64,000 nucleotides of DNA from a bacterium. Lineage in GTDB: Bacteria > UBP6 > UBA1177 > G963667425. Position 1 is the stretch's first letter. Each line of letters starts with the position of its first letter. The translations under genes and the position numbers were made by a program. The stretch covers positions 1,930,281-1,994,280 of the forward strand of contig OY763407.1 in assembly GCA_963667425.1 (NCBI GenBank). Direction: 5' to 3'. This document shows, piece by piece, positions 4,884 to 54,340 of the stretch. The notes beneath the pieces were generated by a model. It ran no database searches. It saw only the letters and a list, made by a program, of their open reading frames with translations, and was not told the DNA's origin.

Positions 4884-7433
4884 TTATGGAAGTTCGTAGT
4901 AAATTTCTTTAGGAACATCAACTTTTTCAGCTAAACTTCCTGTTCCAAGTTTGCCGTACCCTCCATCTCCCCAGCAGTAAACTTTACCTTCCGTATCATA
5001 AGCACATGTGTGCTGAACTCCTGTAGTTATTCCTTCAAGTTTTTTTCCATTTAAAGCACCATTCATATTAACTGAAACAGGAACTGTACTGAAGTAATCA
5101 ATATCACCTTCTTTATGATTACCATTACCAAGCTCACCAGAATTTCCTGAGCCCCAGCAGTATGCCTTGCCATCATCATCAAGAGCACATGTGTAATAAT
5201 AACCTGTTGAAATTTTTATCAGTTTTTTTCCATTTAAAACACCGGAAGAATCCACTTCTATTGGCTCAAAAACATTATAATTACCCTCTTCTTCATTATA
5301 TCTCCCATCTCCTAAAGCACCATCTAGTCCACCGCCCCAACAATATGCTTTTCCTTCATCTGAAACTGCACAGGCATGCCCTCCGACGTGTGAATTTATT
5401 GCACTTATATCAACAATCTTTTTGTCTTTAAGAACTCCTGAATAGTTAATAGGTGCAGGCAGAAAATTACAATTGGATGTCGTTCCCATAACACCATAAC
5501 CAGCGCTTCCCCAACAATAGACTTTTCCATTAACATCAATAGCACAAGTATATCCTTGTCCAGCCGTTATCTTCACAAATCTTAATTCACCTGATTTAAC
5601 AGAAAGAGGTACTGCACTAATTCTATAAGACCCTGTTCCGAGCTGTCCTTTTCCCCAGCAGTAAGCTTCACCTCTGTCATCAAGAGCACATGCATGCCCC
5701 AGAGCGACAGCTAATTTAACAAGTTTCTTCCCTTTAAGAATGTCTGACGTATCAACAGCAACCGGTACAAGACTTGTTTCTTTTAAACCATTACCAAGCT
5801 CTCCATTTTCACCGTATCCCCAGCAATATGCTTTACCCTCATCATCCAGAGCACATGTATATCCATATGCGCCGCTTGTACCTCCTGCTGATTTTATCTC
5901 TACAATCTTTTTACAGTTTAAAACACCATAAGTATTAACCCTTTTGGGCAGCATTTCATAAGAAATTCCGTTTAAGACATCGAATCCTTCAACTCCATCA
6001 CCCAATTCTCCATATTCCTGACTTCCCCAGCAGTAAGCAGTTCCTTTATCATCCACAGCACATGTATGTTCTGAACCGGCAGAAAGAGAAATAACCTTTT
6101 TCCCATATAATTCACTTCTTCTATTTAAAAAAAGAGAATGTGGAGCTATTGCATCATTCACAGAGAAATCACCAATCTCACCTGAAATACCTTTTCCCCA
6201 GCAGTAAGCCCCGCCTTCACTGTCAAGAGCACATGTGTGATAGTTACCAGTTGTTATAAAGACAATATGTTTTTCTTTAAGAACGCCTTCAGAATAAACT
6301 GCTATGGGAGCATTACACAAATTACCATCACACTCCTCTTCCTTATCTTCACCATTCCCAAGTTCTCCATAAGAATCATCTCCCCAGCAGTAAATTTCCC
6401 CTTCATTATCAAGAATACATGAATGCCAGTATCCTGGAGCAAGAGAAACCCATTTCTTTTTCATATACGCAAGTTCATCAATCATATCAGAGTTGCCATA
6501 AGCTCGATAGTACCCATAAGCCCACCTATGAAGAACACCCTCAGTATCTATAGCACCGCGACTGGTTATGGAAACAAACTTTACATCACTCAAATTGTTA
6601 TTGACCTTTTCTGGAACAAGAGCATATTCATCACTTCTGTTACCATTTTCATCACACGAAGCATGACCCCAGCAATAACCTTTCCCGTCAGAATCAAGAG
6701 CACATGTGTTTGACTTATGGGCACTTATAAATGTAAAAGAAGTATTTTCAGGAAGCATTGACAAATCTACAGCCACAGGAACAGAACTGTCCTCTATCGT
6801 ACCGTTTCCAAGCTGACCTTCATCATTTTTTCCCCAGCAGTAGATGCCGCCACTATCATCAAGTGCACATGAATGATATTCTCCCGAAGTAAGTCCAACT
6901 ATTTTTTTATCTTTCATAATACCGTTCATATCAACATCAACAGGTACCATATTTTTTTCATTAGACCCATTACCGAGCTGTCCATATTCTCCCGAGCCCC
7001 AGCAATAAATTCTTCCAGCATCATCAAGAACACACGAGTGACTGTAACCAACAGTTAATATTTTTATTTCTCCCGCATTTCTTATATCAATTTTCTGAGG
7101 CGAAGCAGAATCGTAAAGTCCACCGAAACAGTAAACAGTATTTAATTCAGTAACCGCACAGGTTGCTCCATATGCACCAATCATTTTTATCTTTATTTTA
7201 TCTTCCTGAAAATCATCATCCGGCAGACATAATTCTGAAATATCAGGATTAGGGAAATTAAAATCTTCATCGGAAAAATCTTCATCAATCAGGTCAGCAT
7301 CAGCACTCTCAGCATTATCAGCATCAGATAAAATATCAGCATCATTGTTTTCAGAATAAACCGGATTGTTTTCCTTCGTACATGAAAGAAGATTTGAAAT
7401 TAAAAGTAATAAAACAATAAACATACTTTTCAT
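4884..7433 (-). CDS. RCC1-repeat (beta-propeller) lipoprotein
   Basis: Signal peptide plus lipobox (LLSC), acidic linker (DADILSDADNAESADADLIDEDFSDEDF), then about 13 repeats of the pattern G-x-x-H-[ST]-C-A-[LV]-D-x-x-G-x-x-Y-C-W-G-x-x-x-x-G-[EQ]-L-G-[ND]-G typical of RCC1 blades. Confidence 0.8.
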   Translation of the reverse strand: MKSMFIVLLLLISNLLSCTKENNPVYSENNDADILSDADNAESADADLIDEDFSDEDFNFPNPDISELCLPDDDFQEDKIKIKMIGAYGATCAVTELNTVYCFGGLYDSASPQKIDIRNAGEIKILTVGYSHSCVLDDAGRIYCWGSGEYGQLGNGSNEKNMVPVDVDMNGIMKDKKIVGLTSGEYHSCALDDSGGIYCWGKNDEGQLGNGTIEDSSVPVAVDLSMLPENTSFTFISAHKSNTCALDSDGKGYCWGHASCDENGNRSDEYALVPEKVNNNLSDVKFVSITSRGAIDTEGVLHRWAYGYYRAYGNSDMIDELAYMKKKWVSLAPGYWHSCILDNEGEIYCWGDDSYGELGNGEDKEEECDGNLCNAPIAVYSEGVLKEKHIVFITTGNYHTCALDSEGGAYCWGKGISGEIGDFSVNDAIAPHSLFLNRRSELYGKKVISLSAGSEHTCAVDDKGTAYCWGSQEYGELGDGVEGFDVLNGISYEMLPKRVNTYGVLNCKKIVEIKSAGGTSGAYGYTCALDDEGKAYCWGYGENGELGNGLKETSLVPVAVDTSDILKGKKLVKLAVALGHACALDDRGEAYCWGKGQLGTGSYRISAVPLSVKSGELRFVKITAGQGYTCAIDVNGKVYCWGSAGYGVMGTTSNCNFLPAPINYSGVLKDKKIVDISAINSHVGGHACAVSDEGKAYCWGGGLDGALGDGRYNEEEGNYNVFEPIEVDSSGVLNGKKLIKISTGYYYTCALDDDGKAYCWGSGNSGELGNGNHKEGDIDYFSTVPVSVNMNGALNGKKLEGITTGVQHTCAYDTEGKVYCWGDGGYGKLGTGSLAEKVDVPKEIYYELP

Positions 7434-17799: not shown

Positions 17800-18615
17800 T
17801 TGAAAAAAATTAAAGCTATTCTCTCTCTCTACAGAAAAGATGTTTTTTCTGTAATCTTTGTTGTTTCGGTTATCGGTTTTTATGTTTCATATAAAGCTGT
17901 AAACTTGCAGTTTATATTAAAAGCTCTTTTCATAGCTGGTGTTTTATATAATTTTGTATATAGTGCAAATTCTATTTCAGATATAAGGGAAGATACGCTT
18001 AATAATAAGAAAAAGCCTTTAGTTACGGGTGCTCTTTCAGTTAAAACAGCGTATGTTTATTCATTTATTTTGATCATGGCATCCACACTGTTTTCTCCAT
18101 TTCTGTTTAACGGCTGGAATCTGCTTGCAGCTTATCTTGTTATTTTGATGGGGATTTTATATTCTTTTGGTAAAAATCCTCTTAAAAACAGACCTTTTTT
18201 GGCACCAATAGTTACTGGATGGGGAATTGTAAATCCACTTTTTATAACAGGAACTTCAGAAATCTTACCAATTGTTCCGGGGGCACTCCTCTTTACGATA
18301 GGAACAACGCTTTTAAAAGATTTGGCAGATAAAGAAGGCGACACTATTGCAGGAAGAAAAACAATAGCCACACTCTTTACAGCAAGAGATGTTACTAAAA
18401 TTACTTTTATACTTACGACAATAGCAACCATACTGATACTTTTTCAGAAATACTGGCAGGTAATGGTCATTCCTCTTTTTATAGCAGTAACTACTCTTAT
18501 TCATTTAATAAGGCATAACGACAGATACATTTCAAAAAATGTGTATAGGGATTCGAGACATATAACAATGCTATCTACTGTGATAACGTTACTGCTTATT
18601 ATCTTTTTTAATTAA
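17800..18615 (+). CDS. UbiA-family membrane prenyltransferase
   Basis: TTG start 3 nt after the MoxR stop. First Asp-rich motif (NSISDIREDTLNNKKKPLVTGALS) and second (KDLADKEGDTIAGRKT) typical of UbiA prenyltransferases; about 8 TM helices. Confidence 0.6.
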   Translation: MKKIKAILSLYRKDVFSVIFVVSVIGFYVSYKAVNLQFILKALFIAGVLYNFVYSANSISDIREDTLNNKKKPLVTGALSVKTAYVYSFILIMASTLFSPFLFNGWNLLAAYLVILMGILYSFGKNPLKNRPFLAPIVTGWGIVNPLFITGTSEILPIVPGALLFTIGTTLLKDLADKEGDTIAGRKTIATLFTARDVTKITFILTTIATILILFQKYWQVMVIPLFIAVTTLIHLIRHNDRYISKNVYRDSRHITMLSTVITLLLIIFFN

Positions 18616-19560
18616 TATATCATATATTTTTACAGAAACGCTATTTTCTTCATCATTGATAGAGAGAGCTTTAACTTCTTTTTCTCCTAAAAACGAAATA
18701 TTCATTCCAGTCATTGAGTCTATTTCTACAGGAAATCCAAGATCTTTTTGAACGTAAGTATGGGAATTCTGAGAAAAATATGTAAAGAAAGCATCTTCTT
18801 TTTTCACATAGAATATTGAGAAAGGAGCTTTTTCTGCATTAATGTAACTGGAAATGAAGTGCTGCTGATTCTTTTTACTATTAAGAGCATAAAGATTTAT
18901 CTGAATTCTGTTACCTCTGGGCATGATTGTGGAGAAAAGAATGCTGTCATCAACACACTGAATATTAAAGGGTGTCTCATCTGCGAGCATATCAAGTTTT
19001 AAAAGATATTCAGGATCTTTTGTTCTTTCTGCAATAGATCTGAGTTTTGCCATATATTCCACTTCGGCATCACTGTAATTTTTTGATGTTCCAATGAAAT
19101 AATTATCCCAGAAACTAAAATTAAGATCTGTTTTTGAAATGAAATATTTATTATTATCTTTCTCTTCCGATTTAAAAAGAAACCAGAGATTTTTATCTGA
19201 AAAAGATGAATCGAGAACAGAAACATTAGAAGGAAGTGTATAAGTGTTTTTTAAGGAATCTTTTTCAAAAATAAAAAGTTTAATTCCGGTATAACCCATA
19301 TTTTTGGAAACGACAATATCTCCATCAGTACTGACATAAAGGGGCGTTTGTCCTAAATGATTAAAAGGAAGGTCTTTTATTTCATTATCAGCAAAATAAG
19401 CCCACTTTTCAGATGAATACTGAACAATTTTAAAAATATTGTCAGAAAAAAGAGAAACACTGCAATCTTCGCCATTACATAAAATATCAGAAGAATATTC
19501 CTTGTTGCAGGAAAAGAAAAGAAATGTTATGAAAAGTATTAAGGTAATATATCGGAACAA
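18589..19560 (-). CDS. Hypothetical lipoprotein
   Basis: TTG start; signal peptide plus lipobox (FLFFSCNKEY). Begins 2 nt after the stop of the upstream ER/K-rich gene. Confidence 0.5.
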   Translation of the reverse strand: MFRYITLILFITFLFFSCNKEYSSDILCNGEDCSVSLFSDNIFKIVQYSSEKWAYFADNEIKDLPFNHLGQTPLYVSTDGDIVVSKNMGYTGIKLFIFEKDSLKNTYTLPSNVSVLDSSFSDKNLWFLFKSEEKDNNKYFISKTDLNFSFWDNYFIGTSKNYSDAEVEYMAKLRSIAERTKDPEYLLKLDMLADETPFNIQCVDDSILFSTIMPRGNRIQINLYALNSKKNQQHFISSYINAEKAPFSIFYVKKEDAFFTYFSQNSHTYVQKDLGFPVEIDSMTGMNISFLGEKEVKALSINDEENSVSVKIYDILIKKDNKQ

Positions 19561-19564
19561 AAGG

Positions 19565-21043
19565 CTATTCCAGTTCTTTCAAGGTTTTTTCTGCTTTTTT
19601 GTAAGTATCATTATCTGCATTTACAAGCTTAAGAATAGATCTTAAAAGCTCTTTTGCTTTTGTAGGATTAAAATTCTTAGTTACATTAGCCTTTGAGTAA
19701 AGCTTTTTAACCAATTCATCCTTACTGTCAAGCCATTCCTGACATTCTGATTTATCCGGATCTTTATCTATACATTTTTCATAATTTTCATTTGCTGCAA
19801 CATAGTCATCCTTCTTTTCCATAGCAAGAGCTTTTGCATAGTAACCTATCGCATAAACTTTATCTACACTTTGAGAGAAGTTTGTACCGCCATCAACAAT
19901 TTCCTTATCAAGAGAAACAGCTGCTTCAAGATTGTCCAGGATAAGGTTATGATTTAAAAGTTTTATACCTTCAACAATTTTTGAACGAACTTTGTTAAAA
20001 GCCATAAGCTGTGTTTTAAGCGCAAGAACTTTTGCATCTTCTTCACATTCACATTTATATTTCTCAACTTTAAGAATCATTCTGATAGCATCATTGTATT
20101 TTCCTTCAGAACACATATCTATAACTTTATTTCTTGCAGATTCGAGCTTGGAAGCATTCGTCTTAAGCTGTCCTTCTTTATTTTTTGCTTTCTGTGAACG
20201 TTCCATTTCTCTCTGACGTCTTTCATTCTCAAGACGTTCCATCTCATCCTGTCTTCTTTTACGTTCAACATTTGCTTTTCTTTTTACTTCTTCTCTTTCT
20301 CTTCTTTTCTTTTCTTCTTCTATTCTACGCTGTTGTTCAAGCTCTCTTCTACGAGTTTCTTTTTCTTCAGCGATTTTTCTTTCTCTTTCTTCTTCTTTTC
20401 TTCTCTCAATTTCTTCACGTTTTTGTCTTTCTGCTTCTCTTTTCTGTTTAAGCTCGTCTTCTCTTTTCTGTCTGTCACGTTCTTCCTGAAGTCTTTTTTC
20501 TTCACGTTCTCTTCTTTCTCTTTCCATTGAAGAATTTCTTGAACTTGAACGATCATTACTTCTAGCTCCAGCTTTTACTTCATCATAAACACTTGAAAGT
20601 GCACTTTTAGAGAGTTTCCACAAAGCTGCGGCTGAAATATCTTTTGCTCGACCAAAAGAGTTACTCGAAGAACCAATAATTTCTTCATCAAGAAGACTTA
20701 TTGCTATCATTTTCACAAGCATTTCATCGTTATCGTCAATTTTTACTGACGTAAGAACAGCATAGTCAAATCCTGCCCTTTCCGCTGCATCAGCATTCTC
20801 ACCCCAACAGAATTCATCACTGCCACAAGAAGCAACCTTTTGAGCAAGAGACCTGTTTGATGAAAGAAGATCATCATACGAGATGAAATTAAACTTCTTC
20901 TTAAAAACAGTATAGAGATTTTTGTCAATTTTCTTTGCATCACTTCTGTTAATATCTTTCGTAACTGGAGACATTAAAAGAACCTTTCCTGCAAAAAGTG
21001 GCAACGTAACCAATAAAACTATAAGGACTAAATACCTTTTCAC
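19565..21043 (-). CDS. Exported protein with ~125-aa E/R/K-rich predicted single alpha-helix and a C-terminal helical (TPR-like) domain
   Basis: GTG start with AGGAGG 5 nt upstream; signal peptide (MKRYLVLIVLLVTLPLFAG); central low-complexity ERREREEKRLQEERDRQKRE... region; C-terminal helical region. Hypothetical. Confidence 0.55.
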   Translation of the reverse strand: MKRYLVLIVLLVTLPLFAGKVLLMSPVTKDINRSDAKKIDKNLYTVFKKKFNFISYDDLLSSNRSLAQKVASCGSDEFCWGENADAAERAGFDYAVLTSVKIDDNDEMLVKMIAISLLDEEIIGSSSNSFGRAKDISAAALWKLSKSALSSVYDEVKAGARSNDRSSSRNSSMERERREREEKRLQEERDRQKREDELKQKREAERQKREEIERRKEEERERKIAEEKETRRRELEQQRRIEEEKKRREREEVKRKANVERKRRQDEMERLENERRQREMERSQKAKNKEGQLKTNASKLESARNKVIDMCSEGKYNDAIRMILKVEKYKCECEEDAKVLALKTQLMAFNKVRSKIVEGIKLLNHNLILDNLEAAVSLDKEIVDGGTNFSQSVDKVYAIGYYAKALAMEKKDDYVAANENYEKCIDKDPDKSECQEWLDSKDELVKKLYSKANVTKNFNPTKAKELLRSILKLVNADNDTYKKAEKTLKELE

Positions 21044-21157
21044 GTTTTCCTCCTAAGAGATACAAACTTCAATATATACTAAATTCCCTATTATTTAATT
21101 CATATTTTTCTTTTTATCAAGTTTTTAGATGTTTTTTTAAATAAATAAAACAATTTA

Positions 21158-22676: not shown

Positions 22677-23399
22677 TTATTTTGAAATAGGCTGAAAAGA
22701 AAGCTTAAATGAATTCACACTGTCAATATCATCACAATCAATATCAATATAACCTTCCCGAAAAAACCATGTTGGAATAGGTGGATCAAGATAAAACTCA
22801 ATAGCTGTATCATCACCTAACAGATCATGATCAACAATATCAAAAGAAAGTTTATCATTTTTAGTTAAGGATAAAAGTGTGTTACTTACAAAATCAGCAC
22901 AGTATGAATCAGCCTCTTCCTCTGTCTGGAAAACGAAGTTATCATTTAACAAGACTTTTACGTAAAGATCGGGTGCATGACAATATGCTGCAATGCATTC
23001 AGGGCTTGGATCCCATTCCACATCCTCAGAAACACATGTCGAAATTTTGGAAACAAGCCAGTTAACCTCAAAAGGACTCACACATTCCGATTCGTAACAT
23101 ATTTCATCATCAGCACACTCAGTATGTTCACGGCAACCTTCAAAAGTATCAATATCCGGTTCATTTTCAACAAGATCTTCATCTGGTTCATCAGGAATAA
23201 TCTCTTCAGGAGTTTCAATGGCAACACATTTAGTATCTTTGCATTCATAGCCTGTTTCACAATCCTGAGAAATAAGACATTCAGGTTCACCAATTGAATC
23301 ATCAACTGATTCGCCAGCATTATCATCTCCATCACTTCCACAGGAAACAAAAACAATTAAAAAAGAAAATATAGAAAGAAACCATAGGAAAAATTTCAT
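22677..23399 (-). CDS. Cys-rich acidic lipoprotein (paralog of 23420..24118)
   Basis: Lipobox (VFVSCGSDGDD); two C-x-x-x-x-D-C-x-x-G-Y-x-C-type modules (CLISQDCETGYECKDTKCV; CREHTECADDEICYESECV) and a ~120-aa C-terminal domain. Confidence 0.6.
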   Translation of the reverse strand: MKFFLWFLSIFSFLIVFVSCGSDGDDNAGESVDDSIGEPECLISQDCETGYECKDTKCVAIETPEEIIPDEPDEDLVENEPDIDTFEGCREHTECADDEICYESECVSPFEVNWLVSKISTCVSEDVEWDPSPECIAAYCHAPDLYVKVLLNDNFVFQTEEEADSYCADFVSNTLLSLTKNDKLSFDIVDHDLLGDDTAIEFYLDPPIPTWFFREGYIDIDCDDIDSVNSFKLSFQPISK

Positions 23400-23419: not shown

Positions 23420-24118
23420 TTAATTAGCAGGCTCAAATTTAGCAGAAAAGCTAATTACATTGCTAAAATCAGTTTCATTTATAGCCTGATTTCTGAAAAC
23501 AGATATTGGAACAGGAGAATATGTAATAGTTCCGGCTTTAGTGTAATCAAAAGTATCAGCATCTCTTATTTCTATCACAAAAGAATCATTTTCATCAAGA
23601 ACCAGTTCCACAGATTCTATAAAAGTTGCAGTAAAAGTATCTGAAGCGACATCAGTTTCAAGCACTTTTGCACCATTAAGATAAACAATAATCATAGGAT
23701 CAGGCTGAACAGCTTCGCCTCCGAGACCTATTTCATCCCAGATTTTATCAGTACTCAATGAAACTTTCATATCAGAAAGTCTCCATATTTTATCAAAAGG
23801 ATTAAGACATTGTTTGTACTGACATATTTTATCAGCATCACAATCTGAAGAGGTTTTACAAGAGCCATCATTTGAATCTGTTATAATTTCTGTAACATCA
23901 TCATCAATATCTTCTTCATAAAGAGGATTCCCTTCTGTTTCATCTCCAGGAACACAATAAAAATTATCACCGCATATATAACCTCTGGGGCAATCAGACA
24001 GTGTTTTACAGTTCAAAACTGAAGACTCATTATCAGTTTCATTTCCTTCAGAAGAATCACATCCGAAGGAAAAAAAGAATGAAAAGAAAATAGCTAAAAT
24101 CAAAACACATATCTTCAT
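23420..24118 (-). CDS. Cys-rich acidic lipoprotein (paralog of 22677..23399)
   Basis: Lipobox (SFGCDSSEGNE); same two Cys modules (CKTLSDCPRGYICGDNFYCV; CKTSSDCDADKICQYKQCL) with matching spacing and the motif NPFD/SPFE-x-W after the second module. Confidence 0.6.
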   Translation of the reverse strand: MKICVLILAIFFSFFFSFGCDSSEGNETDNESSVLNCKTLSDCPRGYICGDNFYCVPGDETEGNPLYEEDIDDDVTEIITDSNDGSCKTSSDCDADKICQYKQCLNPFDKIWRLSDMKVSLSTDKIWDEIGLGGEAVQPDPMIIVYLNGAKVLETDVASDTFTATFIESVELVLDENDSFVIEIRDADTFDYTKAGTITYSPVPISVFRNQAINETDFSNVISFSAKFEPAN

Positions 24119-47375: not shown

Positions 47376-47911
47376 TCTACAGCATCTCCTTTAAGGGTCG
47401 CAACAACAATTGCCGTATCATAATTTCGCTTATCATATCTCTTTTTTATGGAAACAGACTCAACAAAAACAAAACGATTATCATTTTCTATTGAATATAG
47501 AAACGTCATCAGCTCAGGAAGAGGAACCGCTCTCAAGGAAAGTTCTATTCTTTCTATTTTTGTTTTCCCCTTTATTACCGGTTTTAATTCTTTTATTGTA
47601 CTTATTTCAATATTGACCGACTCTTTTATGCCGCTAATATATGAATTAAGATTAGTATGATTGTCAGCAAGCTTTTTATAGACTCTTTCTTCCGCTTCTT
47701 TTGAACGATTGTAAAGATTTTTATAACCTGCAATTTTCTGAAGCATTTTTGTTTTGCTCCTTGCATCTGAAGTTGCAGTTTCCAGAGTTGAATCCATAAT
47801 ATACCAAACGAACATGGTCATTATAAGAAACATTACAAGGACAAAAGCTCCGAGCAGACCTTTTTCACGTTGACTTAAAGATGAAATATAGTTAGTTATT
47901 TTATCTTTCAT
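47372..47911 (-). CDS. T2SS GspM-like bitopic membrane protein
   Basis: 179 aa, single N-terminal TM helix (LLGAFVLVMFLIMTMFVWYI); size and topology match GspM; overlaps neighbouring genes. Confidence 0.45.
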   Translation of the reverse strand: MKDKITNYISSLSQREKGLLGAFVLVMFLIMTMFVWYIMDSTLETATSDARSKTKMLQKIAGYKNLYNRSKEAEERVYKKLADNHTNLNSYISGIKESVNIEISTIKELKPVIKGKTKIERIELSLRAVPLPELMTFLYSIENDNRFVFVESVSIKKRYDKRNYDTAIVVATLKGDAVE

Positions 47912-49329
47912 TAGTTTGCTCCCTTGGTTTTCTTGGATTTGTCTTCTTTTGCCTTTTTTTCAGATTCCGTAACAAAATCAAATCCTATAGAAAAATCATT
48001 TTTCCCTTTTATATTTCTGATTTGCCCCTTATTGAGGTTTTTAACATTTTTGTGTGCTTCAAGATTTTCAACCATCTTATTGAAATCTTCAAGTTTGTCA
48101 CAGTTTCCTACGAACCTTACCTTTCCATCTTTAAAAGAAAACTCTCTTATTTCAATTGAACTTTCTTCAAAAGTCAGAAGCGGAAAAAGTTCTTCCATAA
48201 CGTAAAGAGATGAATAAGGATAAACTTTTTTCTTTTCGTTAATTTCATCACCTTTAATTGTTTTCTCCATCACAGACACAGCCTGCCTCAGACTGGGATA
48301 TTCTTTTCCAAGAATTTCTTTGGTCAGAGTTTTTGTTCTACTGTCAAGTTTTTCTATTTCACTATTCACGTTGGATATTTTTATCTGCATAGAAATTATA
48401 AAAATGATAAAAGCGGAAAAAAGCATTATGGAAACAGCTATCATTTTCCTCTTGTAAAATTCAAAACCGCCTTTATACGCAAATTCATCTTTTGCAAAAT
48501 TTGCTATTGCACCTTTTTCTATTGCTGACGGCATTTCTGCAAGAACATCAGAAAGGAAAATGGTCTTTGCTTCTTTTAAAGATGTTTTTAAATAACTTTC
48601 AATGGCTGATGGAATCAATGCTGTAATAAAAAAGAGCGCTGGTTTGCCTGAGAAAAAATCTGAATATGTTGAAACAGTGTTTTCAATAACGCTATCTATA
48701 CTTTTTTTGATCAGAATTTCTTCTTCCGAACTGCTTTCAGCATCTATTTTTCCCAAAGAACCAAGCCAATCCTTATATTCCGCATCATCTGAAATCCTTG
48801 ATATGCTTCTAAGTTCAATTTCCTTTACACCATCTCCTGCAACTATCTGGGATTTGTCATCAAGCATTGCGGAATAATCATCTCCAATAATTACAGATTT
48901 TTCTCTTTCACCTGAAGAGATAAATTCATGTTCAGGAATAATACTTCTTATTTTAGAACTGTGGTTTATGAAGCGGTCAACAATTTCAGCAACATCGCTT
49001 TTTTTGACAATATACACTGTAACCTGTCCGTTTTCCTGCTGTTTTATATCAAAAATTATTTCCGCAGTTTTAAAATGCGTTATAGTTTCTATATCCTGCT
49101 CTATTATCATTTCAAGCTGATTTTTTTTAACAACAGGATACTGCTTTATAAAATATAAAACTTTTGATGCCGGAAAAAGTATGTCAATAAAATCGAACTC
49201 TTTTAAAAAATCTTCAAGACCGGCAAAATCAATTTCTTTTGAACCTAGAAAAGAGACTTTATTATAATCTTTTTCAAACTTATAAAAAACAGCCGAACTT
49301 TCACCCATCCTGCATGAAGCGTATTTCAT
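47911..49329 (-). CDS. T2SS GspL-like protein (cytoplasmic domain, TM helix, periplasmic domain)
   Basis: 472 aa; ~290-aa N-terminal cytoplasmic region, one TM helix (MIAVSIMLFSAFIIFIISM), ~160-aa periplasmic region; position between the K and M homologs. Confidence 0.45.
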   Translation of the reverse strand: MKYASCRMGESSAVFYKFEKDYNKVSFLGSKEIDFAGLEDFLKEFDFIDILFPASKVLYFIKQYPVVKKNQLEMIIEQDIETITHFKTAEIIFDIKQQENGQVTVYIVKKSDVAEIVDRFINHSSKIRSIIPEHEFISSGEREKSVIIGDDYSAMLDDKSQIVAGDGVKEIELRSISRISDDAEYKDWLGSLGKIDAESSSEEEILIKKSIDSVIENTVSTYSDFFSGKPALFFITALIPSAIESYLKTSLKEAKTIFLSDVLAEMPSAIEKGAIANFAKDEFAYKGGFEFYKRKMIAVSIMLFSAFIIFIISMQIKISNVNSEIEKLDSRTKTLTKEILGKEYPSLRQAVSVMEKTIKGDEINEKKKVYPYSSLYVMEELFPLLTFEESSIEIREFSFKDGKVRFVGNCDKLEDFNKMVENLEAHKNVKNLNKGQIRNIKGKNDFSIGFDFVTESEKKAKEDKSKKTKGAN

Positions 49330-49338
49330 CTAAACCTC

Positions 49339-50508
49339 TTACTGTTCACGGTAATAATATAGGTTACCTTCTCTATCAACAACCATTTCAATGGTACTTA
49401 CGACACCATCTTTTTCTCCTGTAGAGACAATTTTGTAAATTGAACCCTTAACCTCAAGTATATTTTTAACATTACTGTTTAATGTAATTCCTTCTTTAGA
49501 TACAACGGAAATAAAATTATCAACATTTGTAAAACCAGTTTTGGCTCTTTCTGCAAGAACTTTTCCCATAAGTTCTCTCATAGCATCTTCATTTGAGAAA
49601 ATAGACAGACTTTTATCTTCAGCATAAGCTCTGATAATAGCTTCAAGCATTTGATAATCTGCTTTGACAATGTTTATCTTACCAGTGGAATAAATAGTTA
49701 TATAAGGATAAAGTATCTTATATATAACATTGTTTACACCATAAACCATATAAAGCTCATCCAGCGTATCCAATCTTGCATTTTTTAATTTATATGAAGG
49801 AATAAAATCATCATAAAGAGGAGAATCTCCGCCAGCCATATCGATCCAGTCCTTTATATTAGCAATAAGTTCTTCTCTTGATACAAATTCTTTTCTATCT
49901 GTTCCTTCAACAAACACAAAATCATAAATATCATCACTAATCATGCTTTGAAGAATAGAAACAATTGAATCAGACATACTTGAATCGAGCATATTGAGAT
50001 TTATTTTCCCATCTTCATTTGCAAATGCCAAACTGAAATCGCCGGGAAATTCAAAGAAAGGATCACCTTCATCTTCCTTCTTAACAGCAGCAGAACCTTC
50101 ACCGCCTTTTTCTCCAGAGCTTTTCTCTTCAGCCTCTTCTTTTTTATAAATATCTGTAATATCCGCAAAAGGTCCGGCTGCTGTAAATTCTCTAAGTATT
50201 GCTGTATCAAAAGGAACTATATCCCAAATTTCAAAAGAGGCTGCACTATCACCCAAAAACTGTTTAAGAGAAGTTTCAAGCTGCTTCTGAAGGTCAAACA
50301 CGACAACTGCAAAGTTAGCTCCTGACTGAGCGAGAGCTCTGGCTTCAGCTTTTTTCTTGTACTGCATAGCAAGTTCATATTCGACTTTGGCATTGCTGTT
50401 CATATCAAAAGCTATTGGGAGCATTATAGCTATCATAACTATGACAATAAGCATTGCAATTCCTCTGTTCGAATTGATATTTTTAAACCATAAAAGCAGT
50501 TTCTTCAT
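49339..50508 (-). CDS. gspK: T2SS minor pseudopilin GspK-like
   Basis: N-terminus NRGIAMLIVIVMIAIMLPIAF lacks the Glu+5 of other pseudopilins, as in GspK; large periplasmic domain. Confidence 0.55.
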   Translation of the reverse strand: MKKLLLWFKNINSNRGIAMLIVIVMIAIMLPIAFDMNSNAKVEYELAMQYKKKAEARALAQSGANFAVVVFDLQKQLETSLKQFLGDSAASFEIWDIVPFDTAILREFTAAGPFADITDIYKKEEAEEKSSGEKGGEGSAAVKKEDEGDPFFEFPGDFSLAFANEDGKINLNMLDSSMSDSIVSILQSMISDDIYDFVFVEGTDRKEFVSREELIANIKDWIDMAGGDSPLYDDFIPSYKLKNARLDTLDELYMVYGVNNVIYKILYPYITIYSTGKINIVKADYQMLEAIIRAYAEDKSLSIFSNEDAMRELMGKVLAERAKTGFTNVDNFISVVSKEGITLNSNVKNILEVKGSIYKIVSTGEKDGVVSTIEMVVDREGNLYYYREQ

Positions 50509-51161
50509 TAAAAAGTCAAAGGCCTCTTCATTTTTATATTAAAAACAGTCTCAATTTTAAGCGGCTTTGTATCGCCATCTGTCTCAGGCATTTCCAAAGT
50601 AAGTTTTATTTTTGGAGGAAGCGAGTTTGAGTAATCCATAGATTCACTATTCCATAAAGGTCGCCAATCTTTATCTGTTTCATTCCAGTATTCAAAAACA
50701 ATTTTTTCAAAACCTTTAAGTAGGGGAAAAGTCTGTCCGCCTTTCTCAGGGTCACCGTCAACCCACGAACTTTCACGCCTGTAAAGAACGTTTACTCCAT
50801 CTTCCTCTTCTCCATAGTATTCAATTTCTGTCTGACTGCATTCCTTAACATTTTCCTGCATCTTTATGTGATTAAAAGAAGTAAATGTAACATGTGTCAC
50901 CGGTTCGTCTTCTTCAGATTTAAAGATTGTTTTATGCGTAATTTCAGGAACACCCTGATGGGTTGTTAAAAACGCATTTTCCATATCTTTTCTGATAAGT
51001 TCAACCGTGAAAAATATCTTTCTTATCCCGTTTAAGCGCTCTTTTGTTCTCGATTTTCCAGTAAGAATATTTGAAAATGAAAAATATACAGAAGAAATTA
51101 TTACAGCAGTAACTGTCATTGCGATAAGGACTTCAAGTACTGTAAAACCTTTGTTTTTCAT
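50508..51161 (-). CDS. Prepilin-type pseudopilin (GspJ-like by position)
   Basis: MKNK-G-FTVLEVLIAMTV prepilin peptidase site with Glu+5. Confidence 0.6.
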   Translation of the reverse strand: MKNKGFTVLEVLIAMTVTAVIISSVYFSFSNILTGKSRTKERLNGIRKIFFTVELIRKDMENAFLTTHQGVPEITHKTIFKSEEDEPVTHVTFTSFNHIKMQENVKECSQTEIEYYGEEEDGVNVLYRRESSWVDGDPEKGGQTFPLLKGFEKIVFEYWNETDKDWRPLWNSESMDYSNSLPPKIKLTLEMPETDGDTKPLKIETVFNIKMKRPLTF

Positions 51162-51168
51162 AATTCTT

Positions 51169-51792
51169 TTATTTTCCCATTTTTAAAGGAGTGTTTTTTA
51201 ACATAGGAGAAGGACCTCTTGTTTTTGATGCAGAGTTTGAAGAAGATGTACCAGTTGTTGAAGTTGAAATAGATCTTGAACTTTGAGAGAAATCTGTAAC
51301 TGTTCCTGGAACATTTATGAATTTTGTAAGCTCAACTTTTTCAGATTCTTTAACCCCTTCTCCCCACATTATTTTTACAGTAAGCTTTCTGACTCTTACC
51401 TTAAAAAAATCTTCAATCATAGGCTGCACCATAGAAAGAGTGCTTGCAGCCTCAGTCATTTCATCATTAACATCATCAGCTTCAGAACCGACATTAAGAT
51501 CCGGCATAGGCATATAAACTTTCTTTATGCTGTAATACCATCTGAAACCTTCATAAAGATTATCTTCAAAATCACCTTCTTCTTCCTTATCCATAGTAGG
51601 AATACCATTTTTATCTATTTCAACATCAACATCATGCATTTTAAGCCATGCGAGCTCTGTTCCCTGATAAATTTTCTCAACTTTTTCAGAGTAACGATAG
51701 CTGTACATCACTATTCTACTTATAGAAACTAACGTTCCTGCAAGAATAACTATTGCAATAACAGCTTCGAGAAGAGTAAAACCTTTTCTCAT
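51169..51792 (-). CDS. Prepilin-type pseudopilin (GspI-like by position)
   Basis: MRK-G-FTLLEAVIAIVILAG prepilin motif. Confidence 0.6.
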   Translation of the reverse strand: MRKGFTLLEAVIAIVILAGTLVSISRIVMYSYRYSEKVEKIYQGTELAWLKMHDVDVEIDKNGIPTMDKEEEGDFEDNLYEGFRWYYSIKKVYMPMPDLNVGSEADDVNDEMTEAASTLSMVQPMIEDFFKVRVRKLTVKIMWGEGVKESEKVELTKFINVPGTVTDFSQSSRSISTSTTGTSSSNSASKTRGPSPMLKNTPLKMGK

Positions 51793-52640
51793 TTTCCCTC
51801 CACATCTTCCGAGTATTCAAACATTTTCTTGAAATCTCCAAGATCTTCGGGAATATCGCCTCTTGTTATTTTTGTATCTGCAAAAAAATCACTTTCTATA
51901 TAAAACAGCGGATCACCATCTTCTTCAGCAATTGAAAGATAGAAAGGGGTTACTCTGCCTGTTGGAAAGATATAAATTACTGATTGAGCAAGTGTTTTTC
52001 TTTTAAGTTTTGCAAGCTCTTCTTCAGAAAGTTCTTCTTCATTTACATCTTCCTGAGATTCCAATAGCTCTTCTCTTATAAGAGGAACCGGCGTACTGTA
52101 AGTAAAAAATTTATCCCAGACAAGACCGGAAGGAAGTGTCATCTTTTTTGATTCAGGATTATATTCCGGTAGTAAAACCTCTTTTATACTTTTTTGCGGA
52201 GGAACAAAATTTTCCCAATTATAATAGTCATTCATCTCATCAGATTCAGATGCTTTTGTTTTCATGATATCATAAAAAGTGTTTGCACCAAGATGCGAAC
52301 CATCACCTTCAAAAGTGTCACTTTTATCTTCTATATCTTCAAGAAGTTTTTCATTACGCTTTAAAACTTTTTCAATATCATCACCGGGAATTAATGAAAA
52401 AGGAGTTTCAGTACTTTCGGCATAATATTCGCCATTTTTTATATCTACTATAATTCTGATATATTTCTGTTCTCTTATAGACTTAAGGAACATTTTTTTC
52501 AGCAAAATATTGAAGTTACCAAGTTCAGCACTGGCTCTTGATTTAGTAATGTTCATGACGCTAGGCACAGCAACACCAAGCAATAGTGCCACCAAGGCCA
52601 TAGCCACAAGCATTTCTATCATCGTAAACCCCTTTTTCAC
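51789..52640 (-). CDS. Prepilin-type pseudopilin (GspH-like by position; unusually long, 283 aa)
   Basis: MKK-G-FTMIEMLVAMALVA prepilin motif. Confidence 0.6.
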   Translation of the reverse strand: MKKGFTMIEMLVAMALVALLLGVAVPSVMNITKSRASAELGNFNILLKKMFLKSIREQKYIRIIVDIKNGEYYAESTETPFSLIPGDDIEKVLKRNEKLLEDIEDKSDTFEGDGSHLGANTFYDIMKTKASESDEMNDYYNWENFVPPQKSIKEVLLPEYNPESKKMTLPSGLVWDKFFTYSTPVPLIREELLESQEDVNEEELSEEELAKLKRKTLAQSVIYIFPTGRVTPFYLSIAEEDGDPLFYIESDFFADTKITRGDIPEDLGDFKKMFEYSEDVEGK

Positions 52641-52656
52641 AAAGAACTCCCTTTAA

Positions 52657-53097
52657 TTACTCTTCTTCTTCGTTTTCCCAGTTTGCAATATCATCACCGC
52701 CACCTTCTTTTCCATCCGGTCCAAAAGAATAGAGATCGTAACCATCTTCACCGTTTGAACCTGGAAAAATATAGATATAGCTGTTTTTCCATGGATCTAA
52801 AGGGACTTTTTTCCCATCAAGAATCTTTTCTTTTACAAGAGAATCAAGTCCTTCTTCTCCGGCAGGATATTTACCTTTTTCGCTCTTATAAAGATCAAGA
52901 GCATTCCCAAGAGTTTTTATATCCATATTAGCCTGTTTGATCTTAGATTTTTCAAGCTGTTTCATAAGACCAATACCGACACCGCCCATAACAACAGCAA
53001 GAATTGTTATGGCAATCATAATTTCCATAAGAGAAAAACCTTTTTCATTTCTTTTTTCCGAAAAAAGTTCTTTTAAGAAATTCTTAATAAAATTCAT
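52657..53097 (-). CDS. gspG: T2SS major pseudopilin GspG
   Basis: G-FSLMEIMIAITILAVVMG prepilin site plus the GspG-specific C-terminal signature (DPWKNSYIYIFPGSNGEDGYDLYSFGPDGKEGGGDDIANW); GGAGG Shine-Dalgarno upstream. Confidence 0.85.
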   Translation of the reverse strand: MNFIKNFLKELFSEKRNEKGFSLMEIMIAITILAVVMGGVGIGLMKQLEKSKIKQANMDIKTLGNALDLYKSEKGKYPAGEEGLDSLVKEKILDGKKVPLDPWKNSYIYIFPGSNGEDGYDLYSFGPDGKEGGGDDIANWENEEEE

Positions 53098-53110
53098 TGT
53101 TTCCTCCGTT

Positions 53111-54340
53111 TTATCCTATAGATTCATTAATTTTAAAAATAGGCACAATAATTGAGAAAATTATAAAACCAATAACCAGTCCAAGTGTCGCAAGCATTAT
53201 AGGCTCTATCATTGAAGTGAGTCTTTCAAGAGTATAGCGAACCTCTTTCTCATAAGAATCTGCTAATGTCTCAAGCATTGATTCAAGTTCACCGCTCTGC
53301 TCTCCAATACTTATCATACTTATAACTATCGGAGGGAATTCTCCAGACCTTTTAAGAGGAACCGAAATGGATTCACCCTCTTTTATATTTTCTTTTGCAA
53401 CAGCAATAGCAGTTTCAAGAACTTTGTTTCCAACAACTTTTTTAACTATGTCAAGTGCTTTAAGAATAGGAACACCGGCATTTAAAAGAGTTGCAAGTGT
53501 TTTTGCAAAACGGGAAATAGCTATCATTCTATTAATTCTGCCGAAAATCTTTACATTTATAAGAAACTTATCCCATCTGAAAAGACCTTTTTCCGTTTTT
53601 ATGTAACGTTTAAAAGAAATAAAGCCTCCGACAGCAACTATAATAACAAGCCACCAGTAATTAGAAAAGAATGAACTTAAACCTATCATAAATTTTGTCT
53701 GTATAGGCAGTTCCATATCCATGGAATCAAACATTTCGGAAAGTTTCGGAACAACGACAATAAACATTATAGAAATAACAATTATTGACATGACAAGCAG
53801 AATAATAGGATAAGTCATGGCAGAACGAACTCTGTTTTTAAGGTCCAGCTGCGATTCAAGAAAATCGGCAAGTCTCAAAAGAACTTTGTCTAATGCACCA
53901 CTTTCTTCACCTGCTGCTATCATATTGCAGTAAAGATCAGAAAATGTATCAGGAAAATCCTTGGCACTTCTTGAAAAGCTGTAACCTTCCTGAATTTTGT
54001 TTTTAACAAGCATCATCGTTTCTTTAAGATATGCATTCTGCTGTTGTTCTGCAACTGCTCCAAGCGCTTCAACAAGCGGAATACTTGCCTTCTGAAGTGT
54101 TGCGAGAAGTCTTGTCATGGAAGCGACTTCATCTAAAGAAGCTTTTTTTGAACGGAGAGAAAGAAGCATTTTAAGATTTGTAAGATCAAAAGCATCTTTT
54201 GATGATTTTTCCTTTATATCCGAAACAAAAAGTCCTTCTGACTGAAGTTTCATTTTCAAAGTATTTCTACTCTCACTTTCAGTAATACCTTTTATCTCTT
54301 TTCCGCTTTTATCAACTACTTTATATGAAAAAAGAGGCAT
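53111..54340 (-). CDS. gspF: T2SS inner-membrane platform protein GspF
   Basis: 409 aa, two repeated GspF/PilC-type cytoplasmic domains and three TM helices. Confidence 0.85.
   Translation of the reverse strand: MPLFSYKVVDKSGKEIKGITESESRNTLKMKLQSEGLFVSDIKEKSSKDAFDLTNLKMLLSLRSKKASLDEVASMTRLLATLQKASIPLVEALGAVAEQQQNAYLKETMMLVKNKIQEGYSFSRSAKDFPDTFSDLYCNMIAAGEESGALDKVLLRLADFLESQLDLKNRVRSAMTYPIILLVMSIIVISIMFIVVVPKLSEMFDSMDMELPIQTKFMIGLSSFFSNYWWLVIIVAVGGFISFKRYIKTEKGLFRWDKFLINVKIFGRINRMIAISRFAKTLATLLNAGVPILKALDIVKKVVGNKVLETAIAVAKENIKEGESISVPLKRSGEFPPIVISMISIGEQSGELESMLETLADSYEKEVRYTLERLTSMIEPIMLATLGLVIGFIIFSIIVPIFKINESIG

What the first reader, a model, noticed from the sequence alone, without database searches (positions are those of the whole stretch)
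19565..21043. Exported protein with a ~125-residue E/R/K-rich predicted single alpha-helix
After a signal peptide and a small N-terminal domain, the protein has an uninterrupted stretch of alternating Glu and Arg/Lys (ERREREEKRLQEERDRQKREDELKQKREAERQKREEIERRK...), the signature of a stable single alpha-helix, followed by a helical TPR-like C-terminal domain. If fully helical, ~125 residues would be roughly 19 nm, enough to span the periplasm, suggesting a molecular ruler or tether analogous to TolA domain II. It is co-oriented with the downstream lipoprotein 18589..19560.
Basis: partly seen in the sequence, partly recalled or inferred. Interest (0 to 1): 0.45.

Follow-up and report, generated by a model that had tools for sequence, protein, structure and literature searches.

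The report
Exported protein with long charged helix
A bacterium from an uncultured rumen/digester lineage exports a protein in which a stiff, ~18-20 nm single charged helix holds a conserved protein-binding domain away from a second domain, always encoded next to a lipoprotein partner; it is probably a cell-envelope spacer or tether of a family nobody has described, but its job is not known.

Summary
ORF 19565..21043 (-) encodes 492 aa: a Sec signal peptide, a ~140-aa N-domain, a short S/N/D-rich hinge, a 118-aa E/R/K stretch (72% E/R/K, no Pro/Gly over 132 residues) and a ~200-aa C-domain.

The charged stretch has the sequence signature of a single alpha-helix, not a coiled coil. Favourable i/i+3 and i/i+4 charge pairs are enriched (z=+5.2) and repulsive pairs depleted (z=-5.3). 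Charge period is 7.8 residues, heptad core occupancy is 0.25, and AlphaFold2 gives one helix, 167-299, at pLDDT 87-97.

The C-domain models confidently (pLDDT 93) as a generic TPR-like fold.

Twenty-seven full-length orthologues, all in uncultured MAGs (UBP6 and similar labels), keep the architecture. A fast-evolving lipoprotein gene follows immediately in all 29 scorable loci. Helix length varies 71-119 aa.

Distant relatives share both end domains but mostly have short acidic or Pro-rich linkers. A third class (FHA-TM-TPR) again places a charged helix directly before the same C-domain.

It is not TolA: there is no TM anchor or TolA C-domain, and it scores 18 bits against a 59-bit cutoff. The best reading is a passive semi-rigid spacer or tether in the envelope. 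A strict "ruler" role is weakened. No Pfam, NCBIfam or PDB family matches.

The parts
21049..21054 (-). Shine-Dalgarno AGGAGG, 5 nt upstream of the GTG start
   Evidence: Read directly from the sequence. It supports the GTG start. All orthologues also start at GTG or TTG.
20987..21043 (-). Signal peptide, aa 1-19 (MKRYLVLIVLLVTLPLFA|GK). SPase I type, no lipobox Cys.
   Evidence: The K/R n-region, 14-aa h-region, Pro at -4 and A/G at -1 are conserved in 27 orthologues, many with AYA|D. No signal-peptide predictor was available, so this is judged by rule.
20564..20986 (-). N-terminal domain, aa ~20-160. Probably alpha/beta, with an invariant Cys pair C73/C79 (CGxxxxC).
   Evidence: 29-39% identical to orthologues. 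Homologous to the N-domain of distant relatives (hhalign probability 97.3%, E 1.7e-11). No Pfam or PDB match. Only sub-threshold hints to TolB_N, FlgO and DUF3280. The AF2 model is poor, pLDDT <50.
20528..20563 (-). Ser/Asn/Asp/Arg-rich hinge, aa ~161-172. Its length and composition vary between orthologues, where it is often acidic.
   Evidence: Alignment A2 columns 165-200. pLDDT 43-69.
20174..20527 (-). E/R/K single-alpha-helix segment, aa 173-290. The AF2 helix is 167-299 and possibly continues to aa 312.
   Evidence: Composition. Charge patterning z +5.2 / -5.3 and heptad occupancy 0.25. Charge period 7.8 residues and no hydrophobic periodicity. One AF2 helix at pLDDT 87-97. The first helix of the separate C-domain model covers aa 289-312.
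19565..20173 (-). C-terminal TPR-like helical domain, aa 291-492, plus the stop codon. This is the most conserved part. Motifs: KCECEEDAK, LILDN, GGT.FS, NFNPTKAKELL, YKKAE. Conserved Cys: C311, C331, C333, C424, C434.
18589..19560 (-). Partner lipoprotein, 323 aa. The TTG start lies 4 nt after the target's stop. Lipobox FFSC (C18), with invariant C28, C33 and C202.
   Evidence: A lipobox protein of 303-354 aa follows immediately in all 29 scorable loci. Homology was shown by phmmer for 14 of them (E 1e-10 to 6e-15 in the small set). Identity is only 15-23%. No Pfam or PDB family.

Best explanation
The gene encodes a Sec-exported, probably periplasmic, three-part protein.

A globular N-domain is joined by a short flexible hinge to a long, stable single alpha-helix of the E/R/K type. 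By composition the helix is about 118 residues; as predicted it is 133, possibly 146 if continuous with the first helix of the C-domain. At 0.15 nm per residue this is about 18-22 nm. The helix runs straight into a TPR-like protein-binding domain.

The helix most likely acts as a passive, semi-rigid spacer. It would keep the highly conserved C-domain, which presumably binds a conserved envelope partner, at a distance from the N-domain.

The protein works with the translationally coupled lipoprotein encoded 4 nt downstream. That lipoprotein presumably provides the membrane anchor. I infer that it binds the faster-evolving N-domain. Together the pair would form a tether between two envelope layers.

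Shown: the architecture, the helix signature, conservation of the gene pair, the TPR-like fold and the export signal. Inferred: periplasmic location, monomeric helix, lipoprotein-N-domain contact and the tethering function.
For: Gene and export:
- ORF and start.
- Signal peptide features conserved in 27 orthologues.
- The organism encodes an outer-membrane secretin and a T2SS in the same window, so it is diderm.

Helix signature:
- 94 attractive i/i+3 and i/i+4 charge pairs versus 63.7+-5.8 in shuffles; 33 repulsive versus 63.3+-5.7.
- The same signature appears in all 28 family members: z_att 2.1-7.8, heptad a/d occupancy 0.20-0.47.
- Charge period 7.8 residues (0 of 2000 shuffles) and no hydrophobic periodicity.
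- No Pro/Gly over 92-151 residues in any member.
- AF2 gives a single helix 167-299 at pLDDT 87-97.

End domains and partner:
- C-domain is TPR-like with pLDDT 93.
- Only the two-gene pair is syntenic; the flanking genes are not.
- Identity to the window protein is graded: C-domain 54-69%, N-domain 29-39%, lipoprotein 15-23%.
- A charged Pro/Gly-free helix of 34-124 aa directly precedes the same C-domain in an unrelated FHA-TM-TPR architecture. This suggests a reusable 'helix + C-domain' module.
Against: - No experiment or oligomer prediction was possible. An AF2 monomer model cannot exclude self-association.
- Several positions in the helix are invariant (L271, E272, E274, R275, E279, E281). 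At least its C-terminal third may therefore be a binding surface, not a mere spacer.
- Distant relatives with both end domains mostly lack a long helix. The function of the domains does not intrinsically need one.
- The N-domain fold is unknown, because AF2 failed with a 3-sequence alignment.
- The lipoprotein's fold, location and binding partner are unknown.
- Periplasmic retention is assumed. T2SS secretion is not excluded.
Confidence: 0.5

Rival explanations
1. The charged region is only a flexible polyampholyte linker, an entropic tether. Helicity and length would be irrelevant, and all that matters is that the two end domains are joined.
For: - Distant relatives homologous in both the N- and C-domains have short acidic or Pro-containing linkers (P0021, P0026, P0028, P0042, P0056, P0119).
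- Length varies 71-119 aa among orthologues.
- Total spacer between domain anchors varies 124-185 aa.
Against: - Charge order is strongly non-random in the helix-stabilising sense in all 28 members.
- There is not one Pro or Gly in 92-151 residues in any member.
- AF2 pLDDT is above 90.
- Specific positions are invariant.
- A separate, clearly disordered hinge already exists N-terminal to the stretch.
Confidence: 0.15
2. The region forms a homo-oligomeric coiled coil, parallel or antiparallel, as in Braun's lipoprotein Lpp or in M-protein-like fibrils.
For: - Sparse hydrophobic residues recur every ~7-14 positions, and several are conserved: L/I/M at window 235, 241 and 271.
- Some rumen-clade orthologues reach a heptad occupancy of 0.62 in a 28-residue window.
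- A monomer AF2 run cannot test oligomers.
Against: - Best-register a/d occupancy is 0.25 mean and 0.38 maximum.
- There is no hydrophobic periodicity at 3.5, 3.6, 7 or 11 residues.
- Only 10% of residues are strong hydrophobics.
Confidence: 0.12
3. The protein is a true molecular ruler or TolA-like force transducer. It would span inner to outer membrane and set or sense periplasm width.
For: - At 18-22 nm it is of the order of a Gram-negative periplasm (my own knowledge: about 20-25 nm in E. coli).
- It is rigidly joined to the C-domain.
- In the FHA-TM class the same helix + C-domain hangs from an inner-membrane anchor.
Against: - There is no TM anchor, SHLS motif or motor box. TolA features are as described in PMC12204202.
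- TIGR02794 scores 18.2 bits against a cutoff of 59.45, on the charged region only.
- No tolQR or pal genes are nearby.
- The C-domain is TPR-like, not TolA/TonB-like.
- Helix length spreads 1.7-fold among related species.
- A flexible hinge on one side cannot transmit compression.
Confidence: 0.08
4. The protein is secreted or surface-exposed, for example as a T2SS substrate. It would act outside the cell as an adhesin or spacer towards plant fibre or other cells in the rumen.
For: - A complete-looking T2SS cluster lies about 27 kb away in the window.
- The habitat of the orthologues is rumen, gut and digesters.
- Conserved Cys residues fit an extracytoplasmic protein.
Against: - There is no linkage to the T2SS in other genomes; only the lipoprotein is syntenic.
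- There are no adhesin, carbohydrate-binding or sorting domains.
- TPR-like domains with a lipoprotein partner are typical of periplasmic assemblies (for example BamD among the fold hits).
Confidence: 0.1

Closest known systems
ER/K single alpha-helix (SAH/CSAH) domains, e.g. myosin VI/X lever extensions, the Trichomonas Kelch-motif ER/K helix, the CAF-1 KER helix (PMC10335832)
   Same: - Composition is about 72% E/R/K.
- Blocks of ~4 acidic and ~4 basic residues give i/i+4 salt bridges.
- Charge period is about 8 residues.
- There is no hydrophobic seam.
- It is predicted as one uninterrupted helix.
- It is used as a spacer between two functional modules.
   Different: - All characterised SAHs that I know of are cytoplasmic or nuclear eukaryotic proteins; this is from my own knowledge.
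- This one lies behind a bacterial Sec signal peptide and would work in the envelope.
- At 118-133 aa it is at the long end of the range.
- Its monomeric state has not been tested.
TolA domain II (Tol-Pal system)
   Same: A long, charged, helix-prone region lacking Pro/Gly separates an anchoring end from a globular C-terminal binding domain in the periplasm. There is a weak compositional match to TIGR02794.
   Different: - TolA is anchored by an uncleaved TM helix with an SHLS motif and a motor box.
- Its domain II is Ala/Lys/Glu-rich or Pro-rich.
- Its C-domain has the TolA/TonB fold.
- It sits in tolQRAB-pal (PMC12204202).
- None of these features is present here.
Outer-membrane lipoprotein activators LpoA/LpoB and Braun's lipoprotein Lpp (envelope-spanning spacers)
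   Same: The concept is shared: a lipid-anchored component plus an elongated spacer places a binding domain at a distance across the periplasm or peptidoglycan. The N-domain gives sub-threshold hints to the TolB_N/FlgO structural class.
   Different: - Here the anchor and the spacer are on two separate polypeptides.
- The spacer is a rigid charged helix. It is neither a disordered linker as in LpoB nor a trimeric coiled coil as in Lpp.
- There is no sequence or profile match to these families.
Periplasmic TPR scaffolds (BamD, NlpI, FimV TPR, PflB, SprE)
   Different: - Similarity is only generic: sequence identity 7-18%, Foldseek E >= 0.017, TM <= 0.37.
- It has its own conserved motifs and Cys residues.
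- It is mounted on a long helix.

Membership tests
ER/K single alpha-helix (SAH/CSAH) | High E+K+R content, with opposite charges enriched and like charges depleted at i/i+3 and i/i+4 | tested here: met
   72% E/R/K. 94 attractive pairs versus 63.7+-5.8 in shuffles (z 5.2). 33 repulsive pairs versus 63.3+-5.7 (z -5.3). All 28 family members show the same signature.
ER/K single alpha-helix (SAH/CSAH) | Charge periodicity of roughly 6-9 residues (the criterion of FT_CHARGE-type detectors, from my own knowledge) | tested here: met
   The strongest period is 7.8 residues, with power 12.5 versus a shuffle maximum of 3.6+-1.0 (0 of 2000 shuffles).
ER/K single alpha-helix (SAH/CSAH) | No heptad hydrophobic core, i.e. 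not a coiled coil | tested here: met
   Best-register a/d occupancy is 0.25 mean and 0.38 maximum. There is no hydrophobic periodicity. No dedicated coiled-coil predictor was available.
ER/K single alpha-helix (SAH/CSAH) | Predicted continuous helix without breakers | tested here: met
   AF2 helix 167-299, pLDDT 87-97. No Pro or Gly from aa 160 to 291.
ER/K single alpha-helix (SAH/CSAH) | Monomeric, stable helix in solution (by CD, AUC or SAXS) | not testable with these tools
   This needs purified protein.
TolA (TIGR02794, Tol-Pal) | Sequence model score above the curated cutoff | tested here: not met
   18.2 bits versus a cutoff of 59.45, with the match confined to aa 172-306.
TolA (TIGR02794, Tol-Pal) | N-terminal uncleaved TM helix with SHLS/His motif and motor box (PMC12204202) | tested here: not met
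   The hydrophobic segment is a 14-aa h-region followed by an SPase I site (P at -4, A at -1). It contains no His or Ser-His-Leu-Ser.
TolA (TIGR02794, Tol-Pal) | TolA/TonB-type globular C-terminal domain | tested here: not met
   The C-domain is an all-helical TPR-like fold.
TolA (TIGR02794, Tol-Pal) | tolQ-tolR-tolA-tolB-pal gene context | tested here: not met
   The neighbours are MgtE, a novel lipoprotein, UbiA and MoxR. Only the lipoprotein is syntenic.
Tetratricopeptide repeat (TPR) domains | Match to a Pfam TPR model above the gathering score | tested here: not met
   TPR_2 E 0.0021, 18.5 bits versus a cutoff of 27, one repeat at aa 399-430. Some distant relatives just reach 27.5 bits.
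Tetratricopeptide repeat (TPR) domains | Helix-turn-helix superhelical fold | tested here: met
Braun's lipoprotein-type coiled-coil spacer (Lpp) | Lipobox on the same chain, plus a heptad trimeric coiled coil | tested here: not met
   There is no Cys at the signal cleavage site and no heptad core.
TolB_N / LpoB / FlgO-like alpha/beta domain (for the N-domain) | Profile or structural match to the family | tested here: inconclusive
   Only sub-threshold hits were found: FlgO E 0.03 in 1 of 25 members; TolB_N E 0.047 in 2 of 8 and DUF3280 E 0.013 in 1 of 8 distant relatives. PDB profile searches were negative. The AF2 model is too poor for a fold search.

The most novel reading that the evidence does not exclude
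The 'charged single helix + conserved TPR-like C-domain' would be a previously unrecognised, reusable trans-envelope connector module of diderm bacteria. It appears on three kinds of anchor:
- a soluble N-domain paired with a lipoprotein (this window, UBP6-like lineage);
- an FHA-TM inner-membrane anchor that could couple it to cytoplasmic phospho-signalling;
- alone behind a signal peptide.

In this reading the helix length tunes how far across the periplasm the C-domain reaches. That would be a TolA-like solution that evolved independently of TolA/TonB.
Probability: 0.15. Interest if true: 0.7.

Novelty: new variant of a known kind. Interest (0 to 1): 0.42.

Why it matters
ER/K single alpha-helices are established as rigid spacers and lever arms in eukaryotic cytoplasmic proteins. 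A conserved one behind a bacterial export signal would extend that design principle to the cell envelope. There, distances between membranes and the wall are functionally important, as with Lpp, LpoA/B, TolA and the flagellar rod.

The family carries no annotation. The one NCBI record found is 'hypothetical protein'. It has no Pfam, NCBIfam or PDB relative.

It comes as a fixed two-gene module with a lipoprotein in an uncultured phylum-level lineage of rumen and digester bacteria.

The natural 71-119-residue length series gives a ready-made test set for asking whether reach matters. So does the existence of homologues with disordered linkers, and of an FHA-TM-anchored class.

If it is only a linker, the result is a tidy annotation of an orphan family.

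Tried and rejected
- **Exact look-up of the window protein in public assemblies:** not on record.
- **Word-indexed homologue searches:** the C-domain gave only 6 fragments. The N-domain alone gave nothing. The N-domain profile gave 2 fragments with frameshifted tails. Assemblies seem to break inside the purine-rich ER/K coding region.
- **AlphaFold2 with the good 25-sequence alignment A2:** The N-domain had to be modelled from 3 sequences and is unusable (pLDDT <50). No fold search was run on it.
- **afdb50 fold library:** unavailable.
- **PDB profile searches:** the N-domain (A3, A8) and lipoprotein (A6) profiles gave only chance-level hits, ORC5 and PdxJ.
- **Pfam on all members of the N-domain and lipoprotein alignments:** nothing significant. 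There were a few beta-propeller-family hits at E 0.04-0.4 for the lipoprotein.
- **Is the lipoprotein related to the ~1000-aa TPR neighbour of distant relatives?** No hit.
- **A third conserved gene in the locus:** none beyond clade-specific synteny. MgtE upstream is not conserved.
- **Promoter and terminator scans:** not above the shuffle expectation.
- **Tandem DNA repeats as the origin of the stretch:** only weak low-complexity arrays.
- **Gene context of the FHA-TM class:** uninformative.
- **Literature searches** for a periplasmic single alpha-helix or for the FHA-TM-TPR class found no description of this family.
Full report
**1. What is there**

The ORF 19565..21043 on the minus strand is real. 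It encodes 492 aa and starts at GTG, 5 nt after an AGGAGG Shine-Dalgarno at 21049..21054.

The protein reads as five parts:
- a signal peptide, aa 1-19 (MKRYLVLIVLLVTLPLFA|GK);
- an N-domain, aa ~20-160;
- a Ser/Asn/Asp/Arg-rich hinge, aa ~161-172;
- an E/R/K-rich stretch, aa 173-290;
- a C-domain, aa ~291-492.

The charged stretch is 118 aa long. It is 30% E, 28% R, 13% K and 8% Q, with 10% strong hydrophobics. There is no Pro or Gly between G159 and G292. The opposite-strand ORFs listed over it are poly-F/L artefacts of the purine-rich coding strand. At the DNA level there is only weak low complexity and no clean tandem array.

**2. Is the charged stretch a single alpha-helix?**

Four independent sequence tests agree.
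- Against 5000 shuffles of the same residues, attractive i/i+3 and i/i+4 pairs are enriched: 94 versus 63.7+-5.8, z +5.2. Like-charge pairs are depleted: 33 versus 63.3+-5.7, z -5.3.
- The charge sequence has a sharp periodicity at 7.8 residues. Its power is 12.5, against a shuffle maximum of 3.6+-1.0, and 0 of 2000 shuffles reach it. This is blocks of about four acidic then four basic residues, the pattern that gives i to i+4 salt bridges.
- The best-register heptad a/d positions are hydrophobic in only 25% of cases (maximum 38% in any 28-residue window). There is no hydrophobic periodicity at 3.5, 3.6, 7 or 11 residues. A canonical coiled-coil core is therefore absent.
- AlphaFold2 on aa 1-300 predicts one uninterrupted helix, 167-299, with block pLDDT 87-97. 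The independent C-domain model starts with a helix covering aa 289-312, so the helix may run unbroken for about 146 residues into the C-domain.

Self-association cannot be excluded by these tools.

**3. The end domains**

*N-domain.* It has no Pfam, NCBIfam or PDB match. Its AF2 model from a 3-sequence alignment is unusable. The only hints are sub-threshold hits to FlgO, TolB_N and DUF3280 in a few family members. I treat these as a lead, not a result.

**4. Relatives**

The public word-indexed protein database held only fragments. A scan of one genome per GTDB species found 31 loci. All are in uncultured MAGs from rumen, gut and anaerobic digesters. Their depositors label them 'bacterium UBP6', 'uncultured Spirochaetales' or simply 'bacterium'.

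Twenty-seven of the loci carry a full-length orthologue with the same five-part architecture.
- All start at GTG or TTG.
- The signal peptides have a K/R n-region, a short h-region, Pro at -4 to -6 and A/G at -1. Many have AYA|D and none has a lipobox Cys.
- Identity to the window protein is 54-69% in the C-domain and 29-39% in the N-domain.
- Conserved cysteines (C73/C79; C311, C331, C333, C424, C434) fit an extracytoplasmic protein.
- Every member has the SAH-type signature: z_att 2.1-7.8 and heptad occupancy 0.20-0.47.
- Several positions inside the helix are invariant: L271, E272, E274, R275, E279 and E281.

The length of the E/R/K segment varies from 71 to 119 aa, and the window's copy is the longest. 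The spacer between domain anchors is 124-185 aa. The Pro/Gly-free run is 92-151 aa.

**5. The partner gene**

In the window, a 323-aa lipoprotein (lipobox FFSC, C18) starts at a TTG 4 nt after the target's stop codon.

In all 29 loci where downstream DNA is available, a 303-354-aa protein follows within about -50 to +25 nt. Each has a lipobox and the same Cys pattern: C18, C28, C33 and C202 are invariant.

This protein evolves fast. It is 15-23% identical to the window's copy. Homology is directly detectable for 14 loci by phmmer. It matches no known family.

Nothing else is syntenic across the family. MgtE upstream and UbiA downstream are clade-specific. The conserved unit is therefore a two-gene, probably translationally coupled, module.

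The same window encodes a T2SS with a GspD secretin, at 56031..58553. The organism therefore has an outer membrane and a periplasm.

**6. The wider superfamily**

A profile of the C-domain was searched against 1.84 billion representative proteins. It found 319 hits at E<=1e-3, many of them generic TPR proteins.

Hits matching the whole C-domain in one stretch at their C-terminus fall into three architectures.
- (a) Signal peptide plus C-domain only, 210-250 aa.
- (b) Signal peptide, a homologous N-domain, a variable linker and the C-domain, about 405-626 aa. N-domain homology is supported by hhalign (probability 97.3%, E 1.7e-11). In most members the linker is short, acidic or Pro-containing. 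In P0031 it is a 139-aa K/A/E-rich run. In the four contexts checked (relatives P0021, P0031, P0119, P0026), the downstream gene is not the small lipoprotein. It is a ~1000-aa exported TPR protein, followed by CN_hydrolase and NUDIX genes.
- (c) Acidic N-terminus, FHA domain, TM helix, TPR-like region, then a charged helix and the C-domain, 540-980 aa. A Pro/Gly-free charged run of 34-124 aa ends 0-21 residues before the C-domain in at least ten proteins, for example P0104, P0065, P0046 and P0045.

Two conclusions follow.
- The two end domains can function with a disordered linker, so the helix is an elaboration rather than a necessity.
- A charged helix directly N-terminal of this C-domain has been fixed in at least two different architectures. 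This argues that holding the C-domain at a distance is useful.

**7. Mechanism**

The best-supported model is a passive semi-rigid spacer or tether. The exported protein is joined to a membrane through its lipoprotein partner. The hinge gives orientational freedom. The single helix projects the conserved TPR-like domain about 11-22 nm away, depending on species, where it binds a conserved envelope component.

I infer that the lipoprotein contacts the N-domain because both evolve fast while the C-domain is slow. This is weak reasoning and is untested.

I put 0.5 on this model as a whole. The structural half is much safer than the functional half.

Rivals:
- a merely flexible linker (0.15);
- a homo-oligomeric coiled coil (0.12);
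- a secreted or surface protein (0.10);
- a genuine ruler or TolA-like force transducer (0.08).

**8. Comparison with known systems**

The protein works like an ER/K single alpha-helix spacer. It meets every sequence-level criterion of that class. The defining biophysical property, a monomeric stable helix, cannot be tested here.

It is not TolA:
- the TIGR02794 score is 18.2 against a cutoff of 59.45;
- there is no TM anchor, SHLS motif or motor box, which are TolA features as described in PMC12204202;
- the C-domain is not of the TolA/TonB type;
- there is no tol-pal context.

It is not Lpp-like, having no lipobox on the chain and no heptads. It resembles LpoA/LpoB and BamD/NlpI only in concept or in generic fold.

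Literature searches found no description of a periplasmic ER/K helix or of this family. The one named database record is 'hypothetical protein'.

**9. Verdict**

Right:
- the single-helix signature;
- the TPR-like C-domain;
- the lipoprotein linkage.

Weak or wrong:
- the TolA analogy, which is only conceptual;
- the 'ruler' role, which is weakened by length variation and by helix-less relatives.

Novelty: a new variant of a known kind, namely an SAH spacer in an unannotated bacterial envelope family. Interest is moderate, 0.42.

Noticed in passing
window 47911..58553 (-): A type II secretion gene cluster: GspD secretin 56031..58553, GspE ATPase 54340..56034, GspF 53111..54340, and a GspK-like protein 49339..50508. 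It shows that the organism is diderm.
   Followed up: partly
window 19565..19570 and the orthologue C-termini (alignment A2): All 24 orthologues in alignment A2 end in an aromatic residue (…MEY, …LEY, …MEF). Many FHA-TM class relatives end in …SGF. The window protein instead stops one residue earlier (…KELE-TAG). This could be a real loss, a 3-nt deletion or a sequencing error. A conserved C-terminal aromatic may be a recognition tag.
   Followed up: partly
L002-L032, start codons of the orthologues: Every one of the 27 full-length orthologues, and the window gene, appears to start at GTG or TTG rather than ATG. Most of the downstream lipoprotein genes also start at TTG or GTG.
   Followed up: no
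P0001-P0006, L005, L006 (public metagenome contigs): Public assemblies and gene calls of this family are mostly truncated inside or just after the ER/K coding region. The purine-rich low-complexity DNA seems to break short-read assemblies. This may be why the family is almost absent from protein databases.
   Followed up: no
P0044-P0046, P0057, P0065, P0080, P0089, P0104, P0134 etc. (not in the window): A large class of FHA (Yop-YscD_cpl)-TM-TPR proteins of 540-980 aa ends in the same C-domain, often preceded by a 34-124-aa charged helix. One genome (contig ctg38446l, 1.15 Mb) carries both this class and the SP-N-domain class.
   Followed up: partly
L033, L034, L036, L038: In distant relatives the homologous gene is followed by a conserved trio: a ~1000-aa exported TPR protein, a CN_hydrolase and a NUDIX gene. 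The N-terminus of the TPR protein has a 'VAVIDF…'-type motif that I read, untested, as TolB_N-like.
   Followed up: partly
P0017 (572 aa, not in the window): This looks like a permuted or chimeric relative. A thioredoxin-like N-terminus (CAPC) is followed by the first half of the C-domain and then by the N-domain. It may be a misassembly or a real rearrangement.
   Followed up: no
window 22677..23399 (-) and 23420..24118 (-): Two adjacent paralogous Cys-rich exported or lipoprotein-like proteins of 240 and 232 aa. They have sub-threshold DUF7107 hits, and a C2-like hit in the second. They lie just upstream of MgtE. Function unknown.
   Followed up: no
window 4884..7433 (-): An 849-aa protein with strong RCC1-repeat / RCC1-like beta-propeller matches (E 1.6e-128).
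   Followed up: no
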